64,000 nucleotides of DNA from Candidatus Marinacidobacterales bacterium (GTDB lineage: Bacteria; Acidobacteriota; Vicinamibacteria; Marinacidobacterales; DATDRI01): NCBI GenBank assembly GCA_965219415.1, contig CBDCNP010000002.1, forward strand, positions 4,352,001-4,416,000. Direction: 5' to 3'. Position numbers and translations under genes: made by a program. This document shows positions 902 to 50,028 of the stretch, in pieces (the first letter of the stretch is position 1; the number at the start of each line of letters is the position of its first letter). The notes below the pieces were generated by a model that worked only from the letters and a program-made list of their open reading frames with translations, made no database searches and was not told the origin of the DNA.

Positions 902-1184
902 GGCGACTATGTTAACGGTAGGGGCCACGATGATATCCCGTCTCTCGTTGAAACTGAGCGATGGCAATCCAACGGTTCTGTAAACCTAATTATCCGAATG
1001 CGCTTCGTTGATGCTAACACCGTTCCGCTGCTCATGACACTGGGCCCGTCCTGTGCCAAAATTTGGCCCCTTTGAAATAGACCGGTGCTTCCGCCATCAA
1101 GTGATGGAATGGACTCCTCCACTGACATAGACGGCATCGATGTGCCAAAGTCAGTCGAATACGCATCGAAAAGGAGGAGTCCAA

Positions 1185-2216
1185 ATGAAAGATACGACAA
1201 TCGCTGTGGATCTTGCAAAGAACGTCTTCGAGATTGCCATCTCGGGAGAAGCGGGGAAGGTGTCCAAGCAACTCCGTGTGAGTCGACCCAAATTGGTGTC
1301 GTTCTTTGCCAAACAGAGCGCTGCCACCGTGCTTCTCGAAGCCTGCGGCTCGGCTCACTTCTGGGCAAGGACGTTCCGAAGGTTGGGACACGACGTCGTC
1401 CTGCTCCCACCTCACCTCGTGAGGCCGTATCGACGCGGGAGCAAGAACGACCGCGCCGACACGAAGGCGTTGCTCGAGGCCTACAGGAACGAGGAGCTTC
1501 TTCCCGTACCCATCAAGTCCGTGCACCAGCACACCCTCGCTGCGCTCCATCGCCTGCGCTCAGGATGGCTCTCCACACGGACCGCACGCATCAATGCCGT
1601 ACGCGGGCTCCTGCGCGAACTCGGATTCATCATCCCAAAGGGCGCTCACTTCGTCGTGCCCGCCCTCTTCGAACTCGTCGAAGACGCTGATTCTGATTTG
1701 CCCGACGTGCTCCGTTCGCATCTCCGTGATGCCTGCTCCGAGATTCGAGAACTCAAGGACAAGTGCGCTAGCATCGAGCACGAGCTCAAGGCGCTCACCA
1801 AGCAGCTTCCTGAAGTCCAACGACTTCTCGCCATTCCCGGCATCGGACTTCTGGCCGCGACCGCCATCGTGGGCTTCGTCGGCGATCTTCGCCGCTTCCC
1901 ATCGGGGCGCCGCTTCTCGAGCTACCTCGGCCTAGTTCCCAAGGAAAACTCCAGTGGCGACATTCGCCGCCTCGGACGCATCACCAAGCGTGGCGACTCC
2001 TACCTCCGTATGCTCCTCACCCAGGGCGGGCGCGCCGTGCTCCGCGCGGCGAACGTCAGCAAGAGCCCGCCCGACAAGCTCCGCGCCTGGGCTCGGAAGG
2101 TCCACCGCTCGCGGGGACACAACAAGGCCGTGATTGCTGTCGCCAACAAACTCGCCCGGATCGTCTGGGCCGTCTCCACCCGCGAGAGTGAATTCCAGTC
2201 GCCGGTGGCCGCTTAG
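1185..2216 (+). CDS. IS110-family recombinase/transposase (DEDD RuvC-like + Transposase_20)
   Basis: IAVDLAKNVF, LLEACGSAHFW, KNDRADT, IPGIG, YLGLVPKENSSG, AVANKLARIVWA. RBS GGAGG precedes ATG 1185. Confidence 0.95.
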   Translation: MKDTTIAVDLAKNVFEIAISGEAGKVSKQLRVSRPKLVSFFAKQSAATVLLEACGSAHFWARTFRRLGHDVVLLPPHLVRPYRRGSKNDRADTKALLEAYRNEELLPVPIKSVHQHTLAALHRLRSGWLSTRTARINAVRGLLRELGFIIPKGAHFVVPALFELVEDADSDLPDVLRSHLRDACSEIRELKDKCASIEHELKALTKQLPEVQRLLAIPGIGLLAATAIVGFVGDLRRFPSGRRFSSYLGLVPKENSSGDIRRLGRITKRGDSYLRMLLTQGGRAVLRAANVSKSPPDKLRAWARKVHRSRGHNKAVIAVANKLARIVWAVSTRESEFQSPVAA

Positions 2217-2259
2217 ATTTAGAGGCTCCACTTTCGTGTTTTCCTTTTTCCCTTCCAAA

Positions 2260-2450
2260 AGAGGCTGCGACGATACCCATCCAACTGATGGCGTACCGGT
2301 CGGACCGGCGCGGGGTCAAGCCAATAGCAACACTGGCCCTAAGAGGTCGTTCAAAGTGATTGGCTCCTCGCGCGCGGATTTTCCATCATGGCCCGGAGCA
2401 CCCAAGACGCTCCTCACTGAGGCCGAAGATACGTTTGCAGTCTGACCCAC
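2260..2450 (+). ncRNA. Putative bridge/seek RNA of the IS110 element
   Basis: Two stem-bounded internal loops. AGCCAAT/ATTGGCT encloses target-matching segments; GCGGA/TTTGC and GGCC/GGCC enclose donor-matching segments. Ends are approximate. Confidence 0.75.
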
Positions 2451-2995
2451 TCGTCACGACGCGATGGATGCGCAGCTTCGATGGAAGATTTATTAAGAAA
2501 GGGGCGTGACTAGAAAGAAAGGGGCTTGACTAGAGGAGTCCAGATATGTTGCTACGCGGCTGCGGGCAGTGGTACAGGTGCGGAAGAGACCGGGTTGCGC
2601 GCCTCAGTGAGCAGTAAAACCTCGATCCGCGACCACAAAGGAATCGTCGTCGCCAAGAAGATGTCTCGAAAGGTGAGCCGTCGCGTGGTCAGACCGGCCT
2701 GCATAGCCGGAGTTCGGATCTCACGTCCGAACTTCAGAGTTCCGTGCGGTCGGACGAAGTTGTAATAGCAACGGAGCAACTCCATGTGCTCATCGAGCCT
2801 CTCCGTCGAGCGAGTGTGGGAAAGCGTTCGTCTCGAAAGGTATGCCGAGCTTTGCCGGATCGTCAGATTTAACCGCTCGATGAACGACGTGTTCAATGTC
2901 GAGGAGTCCTCGGAGTTATTGAGCGTGTCTTCGAATCGCCACGCGGCTCCGTGCAGCGCTCTCCGTTCGACCTTGATGATACGACCGTTCCTGCG

Positions 2996-3209
2996 CGTCC
3001 TGTGCCAAAACTCGGCCCTCTTGAAATAGCCGATAAATCAGCAGCTTAGCGTCTGTGTTTTGCGACGGTGCCAAGGGCTGTGGGCTTACAATCGTCTGGC
3101 CCGAGGGTGTTATCTTCGGATCCATCATGACGTACCATGTGCAAATCCTACTGTTGGTCAGGCAGCCGTTGTTCGATCGGGCAGCCCTGCTGCTCACACA
3201 GACCTCATG
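2996..3209 (+). mobile_element. Left-end remnant of the rve (integrase-core) element family with CGTCCTGTGCCAAAA terminus
   Basis: Homologous to 13643 onward, including the start MTYHVQ. Nearly identical to 31463-31677. Confidence 0.75.
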
Positions 3210-35699: not shown

Positions 35700-36962
35700 T
35701 GACCTTGCCCAGGAAAAGTGGACGGGTTGATTATCTCGCATGAGCAGTTTTGAGATCATGAATCCGTTCGAACACCATTGGGCTGTTGTAATCGAGTGAC
35801 GAGTGGAGTCGATATGGATTGTAGAACCCCTCGATGTAGCTCGCGACCGCGTCTTTGGCCATACGTCGTGTTGGCCAACTACGTCGGTGGAGGAGTTCGG
35901 TCTTGAGTGTGCCGAAGAAGCTCTCGGTCACGGCGTTGTCCCAGCAATCACCCTTGCGGCTCATCGAGCACACGATGCCGTACTCATCGAGCACGGCCTG
36001 GTAGGTCGCAGCCGCGTATTGAGTACCACGGTCTGAATGATGCACCAAGCCACTTTCCGGCAGGCGGCGCCCCAAGGCTATGTGAAGCGCCTCGAGAGCA
36101 AGCTCCGCGCGCAGGTGGGGCTGCATCGCCCAGCCGACGACACGACGCGAGAACAGATCGAGGATGACCGCCAAGTAGAGCCAGCCTTCCCAAGTCCGGA
36201 TGAAGGTTATGTCCGTCACCCAGAACTGGTTCGGTCGTTCGGCTTCGAAGTTCCGACCGAGCACGTTGGGTGCGACAGGACGATCGTGCTTGCTGTCGGT
36301 CGTGCGGCGAAAACGCTTGCTGGGCAGGCCCTGCAGACCCATCTCACGCATCAGCCGTGCCACTCGCTGCTTGCCCACCTCGACGTTCTCCCCGTCAAGC
36401 TGGCGACGTACACGCTCCCTGCCGTAGGTACCACGGCTATGGGCGTGGATCGCTTGGATGCGCAGCTTCAGCTTCCCATCCTCACACTGTCGCTTGCTGG
36501 GCGCGCGCTTCATCTGAGCGTAGTAGCCGCTGGTCGATACCCTCAGGACTCGGCACATCACCCGCACCGGGTAGTTGGCCCGCTCCGCGTGAATGAAATT
36601 GAATCTCATTCGCTTTCTTTCGCGAAGAAGGCCGCCGCCTTTTTTAATATTTCTCGCTCTTGCTCCAACGTGCGCACTCGACGTCGTAGCGAACCCAGCT
36701 CATCACGTTCCGCCGTCGTCAGAGCCTCGCGTGGACCTTCACCGTGATCAACTTTGTATTGTTTCACCCAGTTTCGAAGGGATGATTCCGTCAGGTCCAG
36801 TTCCTTAGCGACCTGGCCGATGCTGCGCTCGCCTTCCCTGAACAACCGGACCGCTTCCTTCTTGAACTCCCCCGTGAACTTCCTGCGTCGTCGTTTTCCC
36901 ATGGACGCCTCCAGGCGCATTGTCGCGCCTCGGTTGGTGTCCACAAAACCCGGGCAGGGCCA
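35700..36962 (-). mobile_element. IS3-family element B (orfA 36606-36902, orfB 35731-36609), inserted in an IS1 3' remnant (35543-37061)
   Basis: TG..CA ends; TSD GTT; A6G at ILKKAAAFF; WVTDITF, HSDRGTQY, WDNAVTESFF. Confidence 0.9.
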
Positions 36963-37292
36963 GTTTGCGTGCTTTGCGTGCTCACTGGGGCGCGTAACTC
37001 GCTCTCTTCCGCACCTGTACCACTGCCCGCAGCCGCGTAGCAACACTTGATGGCGGAAGCATCGGGACGGTTTGTGAGACCGGGGAACCATACATCGTTT
37101 TTTTTTGACAGGAATCTTAGGACTTCACCGATTCATGCACCAACACCGTTCTGGCTTGCTAACTTCGTGTAACGCCACTAAAATAGCGCCGTTTGAGTTT
37201 CGCTCGAAGCTCGAGCACCAACCTCCGGTCGCCCACGCGGTGGGTGCACCGGCTAACGTTAAGTTAGCTTCAAAACGGAGGAGACTTGAGGA

Positions 37293-48413: not shown

Positions 48414-48434
48414 AAAACTAAGCTTAACCCATGA

Positions 48435-48828
48435 TGGGTGCATACTGAATCCCGCGGTCGGAATGATGCACCAGCCCTTGTTCCGGCAAACGATGTCCCA
48501 GGGCCATGTGAAGCGCTTCGAGGGCAAGCTGTGTTCGTAGGTGCGGTTGCATCGCCCAGCCAACGATGCGACGCGAGAACAGGTCGACGATGATGGCCAG
48601 GTACAGCCAGCCTTCCCATGTCCGAACGTACGTGATGTCCGTCGCCCACGACTGGTTCGGTCGGTCGGCTTCGAAGTTGCGCGCCAGCAAGTTGGGCGCG
48701 ACCGGGCGATCGTGGTTGCTATCGATGGTACACCGGAAGCGCTTATGCGGCACGCCCCGCAGGCCCATCTCGCGCATCAGCCGGGCAACGCGCTCTTTGC
48801 CCACCTCGACGTCTTCGTTGCGCAGCTG
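48435..48828 (-). pseudogene. IS3 orfB fragment
   Basis: WATDITY...HSDRGIQY. Confidence 0.8.
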
Positions 48829-50028
48829 GGTGCTTCCGCCATCAAGTGTTGCTACGCAGCTGCGGGCAGTGGTACAGGTGCAGAAGAGACTGGGTTGCGC
48901 GCCCTACTGAGCAGGAAAACCTCGATCCGCGACCACAAAGGAATCGTCGTCGCCAAGAAGATGTCTCGAAAGGTGAGCCGTCGCGTGGTGAGACCGGCTT
49001 GCATAGCCGGAGTTCGGATCTCACGTCCGAACTTCAGAGCTCCGTGCGGTCGGACGAAGTTGTAATAGCAACGGAGCAACTCCAGGTGCTCATCGAGCCT
49101 CTCCGTCGAGCGAGCGTGGGAAAGCGTTCGTCTCGAAAGGTATGCCGAGCTTTGCCGGATGGTCAGATTCAACCGCTCGATGAACGACGTGTTCAATGTC
49201 GAAGAGTCCTCGGAGTTATTGAGCGCGTCTTCGAATCGCCACGCGGCTCCGTGCAGCGCTCTGCGTTCGACCTTGATGATGCGATCGTTCCTGCGCGTTT
49301 TGAGGACCTGGCCGTAGAGACACGCTGGCCCGAAGAAGCGACGGATGACTTTCTGGTAGAATTCGAATCCATCCGTGACGATCAAGGGAAGACGCTCGAA
49401 ATTCATCCGCTTCGAAAGGTCGCGAAACAGAGCGTGAGTGTTCCGGTAGCTTCGCCTTCCCGTCACCGTCGATGGCCAGAGCCGAGACCAGACCTCGATT
49501 GTAACGAAGACCCAACTCGGTGTCTTCTTGTTGCCCGCGAATGTGCGAATCTCGTCGGCTTGAAGCTCTTCGGCAGCGAAGCCAGCGATCCTTCTATGAT
49601 TGAATCGACGACACACTTGGGCTGCCTTCTCGAGCCAGCGGGCGACGGTGTTCCAGGCAATCCCTTTGATCCGGGAAATCGAGGAAATGCTGACACCCTC
49701 GACTCTGAGAGCGATGACCCCATCGAAAGTAGCTCTTCGATGTTGGAGACGGTAGTAGGGCGTGCCTTTCGTCGAAGAGAACGTCTTTCCGCACTCGCCG
49801 CACCGGTATCGACGGCGTTTCCCGGACCTTGTTCGGTAGAATCCGTGGCGAACGATGTTTCCGGAACTGACTTTGCCCCGCAACGGACATGCGAGATTGA
49901 GACATCTGCGATTCTTCACTTTGGCTCGGCCCTGACGATGAGAGAACTGTGTCTTCGGAATTCTGGTCCAAACTCTAGCACGCAGACCGGTTAGGGGCTG
50001 GCCGCCAACACTTAATTGCGGAAGCACC
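48829..50028 (-). mobile_element. Complete IS1-family element (1200 bp); single-ORF transposase 48852-49919
   Basis: IR ggtgcttccgccatcaagtgttg / caacacttaattgcggaagcacc. Zn ribbon (C..CP, CGEC), HTH, QADE, VTDG, NTSFIERLNLTIRQ. Confidence 0.9.

What the first reader, a model, noticed from the sequence alone, without database searches (positions are those of the whole stretch)
1084..2560. IS110 element with readable RNA guides aimed at the terminal repeat of a co-resident IS1 element
Seen: the IS110 splits the IS1 end CATCAAG-TG-TTGCTA at a TG core. In its right non-coding end, a stem (AGCCAAT 2319-2325 / ATTGGCT 2359-2365) encloses TAGCAACACT (2325-2334), the exact reverse complement of target AGTGTTGCTA, and TCAAAGTG (2351-2358), close to the left target TCAAGTG. 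A second loop holds TTCCATCA (2381-2388), the reverse complement of the donor junction TGATGGAA, and AGATACG (2427-2433), close to donor AGATATG. Known: IS110/IS1111 elements use bridge/seek RNAs, and IS4321/IS5075 target Tn21 TIRs. Inference: this is an RNA-programmed parasite of an IS1 IR that probably immobilises its host element. Unoccupied AAGTGTTGCTA sites remain at 37038, 48844 and 50674, while MITE and left ends read GTTGG and mismatch the guide.
Basis: partly seen in the sequence, partly recalled or inferred. Interest (0 to 1): 0.85.

Follow-up and report, generated by a model that had tools for sequence, protein, structure and literature searches.

The report
RNA-guided IS110 element targeting IS1 ends
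A small jumping gene that carries its own guide RNA inserts, always at the same two bases, into the end of another jumping gene; it is a clear natural example of a mechanism described in 2024, not a new mechanism.

Summary
Window 1104-2546 is a 1.45-kb IS1111-group (IS110-family) element. It has a 343-aa DEDD transposase, 10-bp subterminal inverted repeats and a 330-nt 3' non-coding end. It sits between two TG copies inside the right inverted repeat of a divergent IS1-like element.

The genome holds 33 left and 31 right junctions, all at this same position and orientation. 30 of 31 right flanks read TTGCTA. Hosts include 1.2-kb IS1-like copies and a ~245-bp MITE.

The non-coding end folds into a two-loop RNA conserved in relatives (92% of cells paired, 13 compensatory pairs). 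The 5' strand of the first loop matches the right flank in 6 of 9 lineages with different targets. One is a 94%-identical single-copy variant with swapped loops at a different, matching site. The second loop tracks the element's own ends.

This is a bridge/seek RNA system aimed at an IS end. Both the mechanism (2024) and IS110-family elements that target inverted repeats of other elements (IS1383/IS1384, IS4321/IS5075) are already in print, so it is a new member of a known kind.

Immobilisation of the host IS is untested. RNA expression is not shown.

The parts
1084..1101 (+). Outer 18 bp of the right inverted repeat (the end next to the transposase C-terminus) of the IS1-like host, cut off from the rest of the repeat
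   Evidence: the 20-mer including TG has 23 matches in the window against 0.01 expected; the same left flank at 33 of 33 left junctions (30 exact 12-mers, 3 with one change).
1102..1103 (+). Left copy of the TG core
   Evidence: Free sites carry a single TG.
1104..2546 (+). Body of the IS1111-group element (1443 bp; 1445 with one TG)
   Evidence: 26 full-length single-alignment copies, 4 near-full copies and 4 fragments in the genome, 99.3-100% identical except one 123-nt fragment at 92%.
1110..1119 (.). Left subterminal inverted repeat TGGACTCCTC, 6 nt in from the core
   Evidence: pair I6: 10 nt, 100% complementary to 2533-2542.
1173..1183 (+). Third copy of the repeat motif (GGAGGAGTCCA) over the ribosome-binding site. 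It can pair with 1110-1120.
   Evidence: pair I3: 11 nt, 100%. The same motif stands before the start codon in relatives.
1185..2216 (+). Transposase, 343 aa, DEDD/RuvC-like domain plus Tnp domain; GLVPKENSSG motif
   Evidence: PF01548 (6.9e-12) and PF02371 (3.2e-24). NF033542 'IS110 family RNA-guided transposase', 302.9 bits against a cut-off of 140; 45.9% identity to an ISPa25-family transposase, 33% to IS5075/IS4321.
2290..2450 (+). Predicted bridge/seek RNA. Closing stem 2298-2303/2442-2447, target-loop stems 2308-2315/2366-2373 and 2319-2325/2359-2365, apical hairpin 2335-2338/2345-2348, donor-loop stem 2389-2393/2421-2425.
   Evidence: Model R1 scores 171.6 bits here. Coordinates. Pair counts.
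2325..2334 (+). Target guide, 5' strand: reverse complement of AG-TG-TTGCTA, so it pairs with the top strand
   Evidence: 3 of 1000 shuffles. It covaries with the right flank in relatives.
2351..2358 (+). Target guide, 3' strand: TCAAAGTG against target TCAAG-TG. The exact run is 5 nt; all 7 target bases pair if one A bulges.
   Evidence: Not significant alone. Same position as the left-flank matches in L059 and G008.
2381..2388 (+). Donor guide, 5' strand: reverse complement of TG-ATGGAA (core plus left end)
   Evidence: 31 of 1000. It tracks left-end variants in G008, G135 and L059.
2427..2433 (+). Donor guide, 3' strand: AGATACG against the right end AGATA-TG (C against T at the first core base)
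   Evidence: The G016-lineage RNA reads AGATATG, an exact match to the same right end.
2495..2534 (+). Two tandem 20-bp units holding GTGACT and TTGACT just inside the right repeat; copies in G034 carry one unit
   Evidence: family D3.
2533..2542 (.). Right subterminal inverted repeat GAGGAGTCCA, 4 nt in from the core
   Evidence: pair I6.
2547..2548 (+). Right copy of the TG core
2549..2996 (-). Inner part of the host IS1-like element: rest of the repeat (TTGCTA...) and the C-terminal 114 aa of its transposase. It is truncated near 2996 by another repeat family.
   Evidence: ORF 2552-2896(-); intact copy at 48829-50028 with a 392-aa ORF. NF033558 IS1 family, 85 bits, below the cut-off of 100. 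for the repeat at 2997-3033.

Best explanation
Window 1104-2546 is an active IS1111-group member of the IS110 family. Its DEDD transposase is guided by a two-loop RNA encoded in the 3' non-coding end (about 2290-2450).

Loop 1 is the target loop. Its 5' strand pairs with the top strand of AG-TG-TTGCTA. Its 3' strand pairs with the bottom strand of TCAAG-TG. Together they specify one position in the right inverted repeat of an IS1-like element and of the MITE that shares that end.

Loop 2 is the donor loop. In the same way it reads the abutted ends of the excised circle (AGATA-TG-ATGGAA).

Recombination at the shared TG inserts the element in one orientation and leaves a TG on each side.

Shown here: the anatomy, the fixed site and orientation, the preference for TTGCTA ends, the conserved RNA structure, and guide/flank covariation across relatives.

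Inferred from the published IS1111/IS110 systems: that the RNA is made, binds the transposase and directs a circle-to-target recombination. Also inferred: transcription with the transposase message, since no internal promoter was found. Whether the insertion disables the host IS is open.
For: Family: Pfam and NCBIfam hits above cut-off. 10-bp subterminal repeats. A long non-coding region downstream of the gene (331 nt against 81 nt upstream). 46% identity to an ISPa25-family transposase.

Site: 33 of 33 left junctions and 30 of 31 right junctions are at the same place and orientation.

Preference: TTGCTA ends are 30 occupied and 72 free. TTGG ends with the same left half are 1 occupied and 44 free. 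Fisher p = 5.6e-5.

Independent insertions: the 10 MITE hosts are 89.9% alike on average, while the IS copies inside them are 99.8% alike.

Structure: 92.1% of cells pair against 32-50% when slid. 13 pairs have changes on both sides, reached by 0 of 500 shuffles. Model R1 also finds the RNA in 4 further genomes of the phylum.

Covariation: the longest exact run between the reverse complement of the loop-1 5' strand and its own right junction is 8 (own; 10 against the intact site), 10 (L037), 9 (G008), 7 (L098), 9 (L059) and 9 (L095). Only 1 off-diagonal pair reaches 7.

Natural retargeting: L037 has a 94%-identical transposase and the same scaffold. Both loop-1 strands are replaced, and it sits at TG-ATTGTTATC, which matches the new guide.

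Donor loop: it follows left-end variants (ATGGGA in G008, ATGAAG in G135, ATGAGA in L059) and the right-end variant ATACA-CG in L059.

Strand order: the top-strand match lies 5' of the bottom-strand match, as reported for IS1111 seekRNAs (PMC11187229, section 9).

Other genomes: the same site is occupied in five more (24, 5, 16, 4 and 5 left junctions).
Against: No transcript is shown. The RNA libraries were available only as contigs and may hold DNA.

No sigma-70-like promoter lies in the non-coding end. The TTGACT at the right end lies 13 nt, not 16-18 nt, from the TATGAT that the circle junction would form (read).

The left-target guide is imperfect (an extra A). The donor 3' guide reads C where the core has T. 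Neither is significant alone.

3 of 9 lineages have a poor exact match on the diagonal. L093 scores 4, one mismatch from its sibling's 7. L094 scores 4, or 8 of 9 with one G-T. L019 scores 3, no match.

Left-flank matches are weak in L037 and G135.

Alignment A2 was fitted to the model, which favours its structure.

The terminal extensions (6 nt left; 4 nt plus core right) differ from the 7/3 or 6/3 given for IS1111 elements (PMC11187229 Introduction).
Confidence: 0.85

Rival explanations
1. The copies multiplied as passengers. One or a few insertions into the IS1-like repeat were then spread by IS1-type transposition of the composite or by segmental duplication, so the common junction says little about targeting.
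For: The outer 20 bp of the repeat remain contiguous and might still be used. Two copies share the same outer flank, and four sit next to the same 37-bp repeat.
Against: The hosts are of at least four kinds: 10 MITEs of ~245 bp, 4 full 1.2-kb elements and others. MITE backbones differ by about 10% while the IS inside differs by about 0.2%. The right flanks fall into 15 distinct 22-mers. The same junction occurs in five other genomes.
Confidence: 0.05
2. The transposase protein alone recognises the IS1-like repeat, and the complementary strings in the non-coding end are coincidence or regulatory.
For: Two of the four strings are not significant alone. No RNA is shown.
Against: A 94%-identical transposase with different loops sits at a different site that matches those loops. 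Loops covary with flanks in six lineages. Published IS1111 elements need the RNA (PMC11187229 abstract).
Confidence: 0.05
3. RNA-guided as above, but the biological point is a safe landing site and a free ride. The composite stays mobile and the IS1-like element and MITE carry the IS110 to new places and genomes.
For: The outer 20 of about 24-26 repeat bases are intact. The element occurs in another family of the order at 93-98% identity, together with the same IS1-like ends.
Against: Divergent hosts with near-identical inserts indicate that most copies arose by fresh insertion. No composite was shown to have moved.
Confidence: 0.35

Closest known systems
IS1111-group elements with seekRNA/bridge RNA (ISEc11, ISKpn4, ISPst6, ISPa25, ISPa11; Siddiquee et al. 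2024, PMC11187229; Durrant et al. 2024, PMC11208160)
   Same: A DEDD transposase of about 340 aa with the GL-P----SG motif. Subterminal inverted repeats. A long non-coding region downstream of the gene. The top-strand match lies 5' of the bottom-strand match. One site and one orientation. 46% identity to an ISPa25-family transposase.
   Different: A new target (an IS1-like inverted repeat) and a new host phylum (Acidobacteriota MAGs). Terminal extensions are 6 nt left and 4 nt plus core right, rather than 7/3. No Rfam family covers the RNA.
IS4321/IS5075 (Partridge & Hall 2003; title seen in reference lists; paper not held)
   Same: IS1111-family elements that insert at one position and orientation in the terminal inverted repeats of another mobile element.
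   Different: Their target is the 38-bp repeat of Tn21-family transposons (length recalled, not checked here). Their transposases are only 33% identical to this one.
IS1383 in the inverted repeats of IS1384, Pseudomonas putida H (Muller, Lauf & Herrmann 2001; only the title seen, in the reference list of PMC11208160)
   Same: An IS cited among IS110-family papers whose specific target is the inverted repeat of a co-resident IS.
   Different: Different host, target IS and element.
IS621 bridge RNA (Durrant 2024; Hiraizumi 2024, PMC11208158; PMC13626964)
   Same: Two internal loops, each reading both strands of target or donor around a 2-nt core.
   Different: In IS621 the RNA lies in the left end, the core is CT, and the core always pairs with the guides (PMC13626964 Discussion passage). 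Here the RNA lies in the right end, the core is TG, and one guide reads CG.

Membership tests
IS110 family (DEDD transposase elements) | Transposase with an N-terminal DEDD/RuvC-like domain and a C-terminal Tnp domain | tested here: met
   PF01548 and PF02371 above gathering scores. NF033542 scores 302.9 bits against a cut-off of 140.
IS1111 group | Subterminal inverted repeats (7-17 bp in PMC11208160; usually 11-13 bp in PMC11187229) | tested here: met
   10 bp, 100% complementary, at 1110-1119 and 2533-2542. This is inside the 7-17 range and one short of 'usually 11-13'.
IS1111 group | The longer non-coding region lies downstream of the transposase gene | tested here: met
   2217-2546 (330 nt) against 1104-1184 (81 nt).
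IS1111 group | Terminal extensions of 7 (or 6) bp left and 3 bp right beyond the repeats | tested here: not met
   6 nt left (1104-1109). 4 nt right (2543-2546) plus the 2-nt core, so 6 if one core copy is counted with the IS. The left side fits; the right side is longer.
IS1111 group | GL-P----S(T)G motif in the C-terminal domain, and a transposase related over its full length to IS1111-type transposases | tested here: met
   GLVPKENSSG read in the translation. 99% coverage at 45.9% identity to an ISPa25-family transposase and 97% coverage at 33% to IS5075. No tree was built.
Bridge/seek RNA-guided recombination | Non-coding RNA with loops complementary to both strands of target and donor, covarying with them | tested here: met
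   and the L037 natural retargeting.
Bridge/seek RNA-guided recombination | The RNA is expressed, binds the transposase and is required for transposition | not testable with these tools
   Only contigs of RNA libraries were available. They show neither strand, ends nor transcription.
IS1 family (host element) | Transposase matching the IS1 family model | tested here: inconclusive
   NF033558 is the best hit at E = 6.6e-24, but 85 bits is below the cut-off of 100. PF03400 scores 21.8 against 24.1. The repeat tip GGTG resembles IS1 only by recall.

The most novel reading that the evidence does not exclude
The element acts as a hyperparasite that disables a whole IS1-like/MITE family. It homes to the one repeat end that the family needs and can fill nearly all sites: 24 occupied against 2 free in G034, and 5 against 0 in G016. 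Related genomes hold 19-71 free sites with no intact element, or none at all.
Probability: 0.25. Interest if true: 0.6.

Novelty: new member of a known kind. Interest (0 to 1): 0.4.

Why it matters
It gives a clean, fully readable natural case of the bridge/seek RNA code outside Proteobacteria: about 30 fresh insertions, about 70 free sites and a graded set of near-target sites in one genome. It also supplies a natural loop-swap variant and relatives with other targets. That makes it a ready data set for the targeting rules of IS1111-type RNAs, such as the tolerated mismatch at the fourth base of the right flank, the bulged A and the C/T core position. It also allows a test of whether one mobile element can silence another. 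It does not change what is known about the mechanism.

Tried and rejected
Rfam: no family matches the element. The 4 hits with E up to 10 are all far below their gathering scores and lie inside the transposase gene on the other strand.

Expression: the look-up of sequencing runs gave 3 runs on record as RNA, 1 guessed to be RNA and 6 others. The four laid runs are contigs only. They carry 90-99% alike pieces of the gene and of parts of the non-coding end. One contig joins 1103 to 2548, an empty site. One contig keeps 2295-2315 and 2419-2445 but has 99 other letters between them. None of this shows transcription, strand or RNA ends.

Promoter scan: nothing in the non-coding end; the single hit lies outside the element at 1034-1062.

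L019 (G026, 54% transposase): the RNA is found, but its loop does not match the flank of the nearest right end, and no left end was found. The copy may be decayed, or the right end may belong to another copy.

L096 (G045): no right end was found.

L033: its first right end abuts a nested partial copy, so its right junction was dropped from the reading.

In the left-flank matrix, the compared string included the first two bases of the left end (AT). All RNAs share these as GAT, so all scores there are inflated by 2. I therefore do not use that matrix as a test.

In one search, the figure for IS copies inside the four 1.2-kb hosts (39-100%) is an artefact of fixed-length slicing of copies with a 20-bp indel. 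It is discarded; one search gives at least 99.3% for those copies.

No target-site duplication was seen around MITE composites.

Literature: searches found no paper on an IS110-family element in IS1-family ends. They did show the IS1383/IS1384 and IS4321/IS5075 precedents by title. Partridge & Hall 2003 is not held. Supplementary tables of PMC11187229 and PMC11208160 list targets of hundreds of IS. They were closed and may already contain IS-end targets.

Full report
**Observation.**
- The element is bounded by TG at 1102-1103 and at 2547-2548.
- The left flank, GGTGCTTCCGCCATCAAG, is the tip of an inverted repeat that occurs 23 times in the window with up to 3 mismatches, against 0.01 expected.
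- The right flank continues TTGCTA. Three uninterrupted AAGTGTTGCTA sites are present at 37038, 48844 and 50674.
- In 1000 dinucleotide shuffles of the non-coding end, the 10-nt reverse complement of the target is reached 3 times. The 8-nt reverse complement of TG+ATGGAA is reached 31 times. Both together are never reached.
- The two same-sense partial matches are not significant on their own.

**What the element is.**
- ORF 1185-2216 encodes a 343-aa protein with PF01548 and PF02371. It also matches NCBIfam NF033542, 'IS110 family RNA-guided transposase', at 302.9 bits against a cut-off of 140.
- It has 10-bp perfect subterminal inverted repeats at 1110-1119 and 2533-2542.
- The non-coding region is 330 nt downstream and only 81 nt upstream.
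- The protein carries the motif GLVPKENSSG.
- Its best match among plasmid records is an ISPa25-family transposase at 45.9% identity over 99% of the length. IS5075/IS4321 are at 33%.
- These are the features that PMC11187229 (Introduction and section 6) and PMC11208160 (passages) give for the IS1111 group.
- The one misfit is the right terminal extension: 4 nt plus the core, where 3 bp is reported.

**The host.**
- An intact copy at 48829-50028 (1200 bp) encodes a 392-aa transposase.
- Its best family is IS1, but below the curated cut-offs: NF033558 at 85 against 100 bits, PF03400 at 21.8 against 24.1. I call it IS1-like.
- The end next to the C-terminus of that transposase reads ...CATCAAGTGTTGCTA. 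The other end reads ...AATTAAGTGTTGG.
- The host copy in the window is truncated near 2996.

**Site specificity in this genome.**
- BLAST of the element against the 8.05-Mb assembly gives 26 full-length single-alignment copies, 4 near-full copies and 4 fragments. Identity is 99.3-100%, apart from one 123-nt fragment at 92%.
- All 33 left junctions follow ...ATCAAGTG. 30 of 31 right junctions are followed by TTGCTA and one by TTGGCG.
- Free ends with the same left half number 72 with TTGCTA and 44 with TTGG. Occupancy is therefore 30 of 102 against 1 of 45 (Fisher p = 5.6e-5).
- By the distance from each of the 31 right junctions to the next opposite repeat tip:

| Host class | Right junctions |
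|---|---|
| ~245-bp MITE with one TTGCTA end | 10 |
| Full 1.2-kb IS1-like element | 4 |
| Truncated or rearranged copies | 17 |

- The 10 MITE backbones are 81-97% alike (mean 89.9%). The IS copies inside them are 99.2-100% alike (mean 99.8%). The IS therefore entered already diverged hosts many times and was not copied along with them.

**The RNA.**
- The 332-nt end folds better than all 100 shuffles (z = -3.3).
- Relatives of the transposase were found in six other genomes of the same order and in named Candidatus Marinacidobacterales MAGs and a Steroidobacteraceae MAG.
- Six RNAs were aligned and gave a consensus of a closing stem and two stem-internal loop-stem modules.
- A covariance model built from them found further copies in 4 of 150 other genomes of the phylum.
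- On the 12-row alignment, 92.1% of cells pair against 32-50% with slid partners. 13 of 30 pairs show changes on both sides, reached by 0 of 500 shuffles. The alignment was fitted to the model.
- In window coordinates the stems are 2298-2303/2442-2447, 2308-2315/2366-2373, 2319-2325/2359-2365, 2335-2338/2345-2348 and 2389-2393/2421-2425.
- Rfam has no family for it.

**Guides follow targets.** For each lineage I compared the reverse complement of the 5' strand of loop 1 with the right junction.
- The longest exact runs on the diagonal:

| Lineage | Longest exact run |
|---|---|
| This element | 8 (10 against the intact site) |
| L037 | 10 |
| G008 | 9 |
| L098 | 7 |
| L059 | 9 |
| L095 | 9 |
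| L093 | 4 (one mismatch from its sibling's 7) |
| L094 | 4 (8 of 9 with one G-T) |
| L019 | 3 (no match) |

- Off the diagonal only one pair reaches 7.
- The most telling case is L037, a single copy in G034. Its transposase is 94% identical and its scaffold is the same, but both strands of loop 1 are different. It sits at ...CTCCAG-TG-ATTGTTATCC, whose right half matches the new guide over 10 nt. Its left half matches over only CAG plus the second core base.
- The 3' strand of loop 1 matches the left flank well in L059 (7 nt). In G008 it matches if one G-T and one C-A are allowed. It matches with one bulged base in this element and in L096, and poorly in L037 and G135.
- Loop 2 tracks the element's own ends: ATGGAA here; ATGGGA in G008, whose guide complement also reads ATGGGA; ATGAAG in G135; ATGAGA in L059; and the right end ATACA-CG in L059.
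- The G016 lineage reads AGATATG where this element reads AGATACG, against the same right end AGATA-TG.
- The order, top-strand match first, is the one reported for IS1111 seekRNAs (PMC11187229 section 9).

**Other genomes.** Free-site counts come, occupied counts, and transposase matches.

| Genome | Occupied left junctions | Free sites |
|---|---|---|
| G034 | 24 | 2 |
| G016 | 5 | 0 |
| G018 | 16 | 31 |
| G014 | 4 | 14 |
| G026 | 5 | 71 |

- G001, G002, G003 and G022 hold 6, 19, 27 and 44 free sites and gave no transposase match.
- These genomes are relatives of one another, so the counts are descriptive only.

**Mechanism and what is inferred.** The sequence evidence fits RNA-guided insertion of an excised circle at the shared TG, as shown experimentally for ISEc11, ISKpn4, ISPa11 and IS621 (abstracts and sections read).
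- Not shown here: the RNA itself, its ends, its binding to the protein, and the circle.
- No sigma-70-like promoter lies in the non-coding end, so co-transcription with the transposase gene is the likeliest source.
- The expected junction promoter has a 13-nt spacer in this lineage, against 17 nt in G008 and G135 (read). This is unexplained.
- The C at 2432 against the T of the core is also unexplained. In IS621 the core is said always to pair with the guides (PMC13626964 Discussion passage).

**Immobilisation.** The insert separates the outer 20 bp from the inner 4-6 bp of the repeat. Whether the IS1-like transposase can still use that end was not testable. High occupancy in G034 and G016 fits a silencing role but does not show one. 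A hitch-hiking reading is equally open.

**Novelty.** The mechanism and the location of the RNA in IS1111 elements were published in 2024. IS110-family elements that target the inverted repeats of other mobile elements are in print: IS4321/IS5075, and IS1383 in IS1384 (titles seen). My five literature searches found no case with an IS1-family target or in Acidobacteriota. Verdict: a real, correctly read feature and a new member of a known kind, useful as a natural data set rather than as a new principle.

Noticed in passing
window 1047-1083 and 2997-3033; genome-wide: A 37-bp motif (CGTCCTGTGCC...GAAATAGACC) has 368 copies in the genome with up to 6 mismatches. It usually runs on into ATAAATCAGCA, so it looks like the end of a third abundant repeat family. 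In 7 copies the IS1-like repeat tip follows it directly at the same position.
   Followed up: partly
window 1110-1120 with 1173-1183: The left subterminal repeat is perfectly complementary (11 nt) to a third copy of the motif that covers the ribosome-binding site of the transposase gene. The motif before the start codon is kept in relatives at 46-61% identity. This could be a hairpin that hides the ribosome-binding site in read-through transcripts.
   Followed up: no
L003, L010, L016 (G016, G034): Some right ends are followed directly by internal IS110 sequence and then a second right end. These are tandem or nested partial copies of the element.
   Followed up: no
L017 (G016) and G000:C3:5105455-5106900: Two off-target insertions. 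One is outside any IS1-like repeat: its left flank reads TTCAAGTG, its right flank is unrelated, and its right core reads AG. The other is in a TTGG-type end.
   Followed up: partly
window 2495-2534: A 20-bp tandem duplication just inside the right repeat holds the TTGACT box. Copies in G034 have a single unit.
   Followed up: no
window 2315-2419, run X2: A contig from a marine-sediment RNA library keeps the scaffold on both sides but has 99 other letters in place of the 103 that hold both loops. It is probably a relative with other guides.
   Followed up: no
G008 (L006, L012) and L059: In these relatives the left junction core reads TG and the right junction core reads CG. The two core copies therefore differ, as if target and donor cores were not identical at insertion.
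   Followed up: no
window 35731-37091 and 48424-48804: IS3-type (rve) transposase ORFs lie right next to IS1-like repeat ends, and one ORF at 36606-37091 runs into the repeat. The region is a patchwork of several IS families.
   Followed up: no
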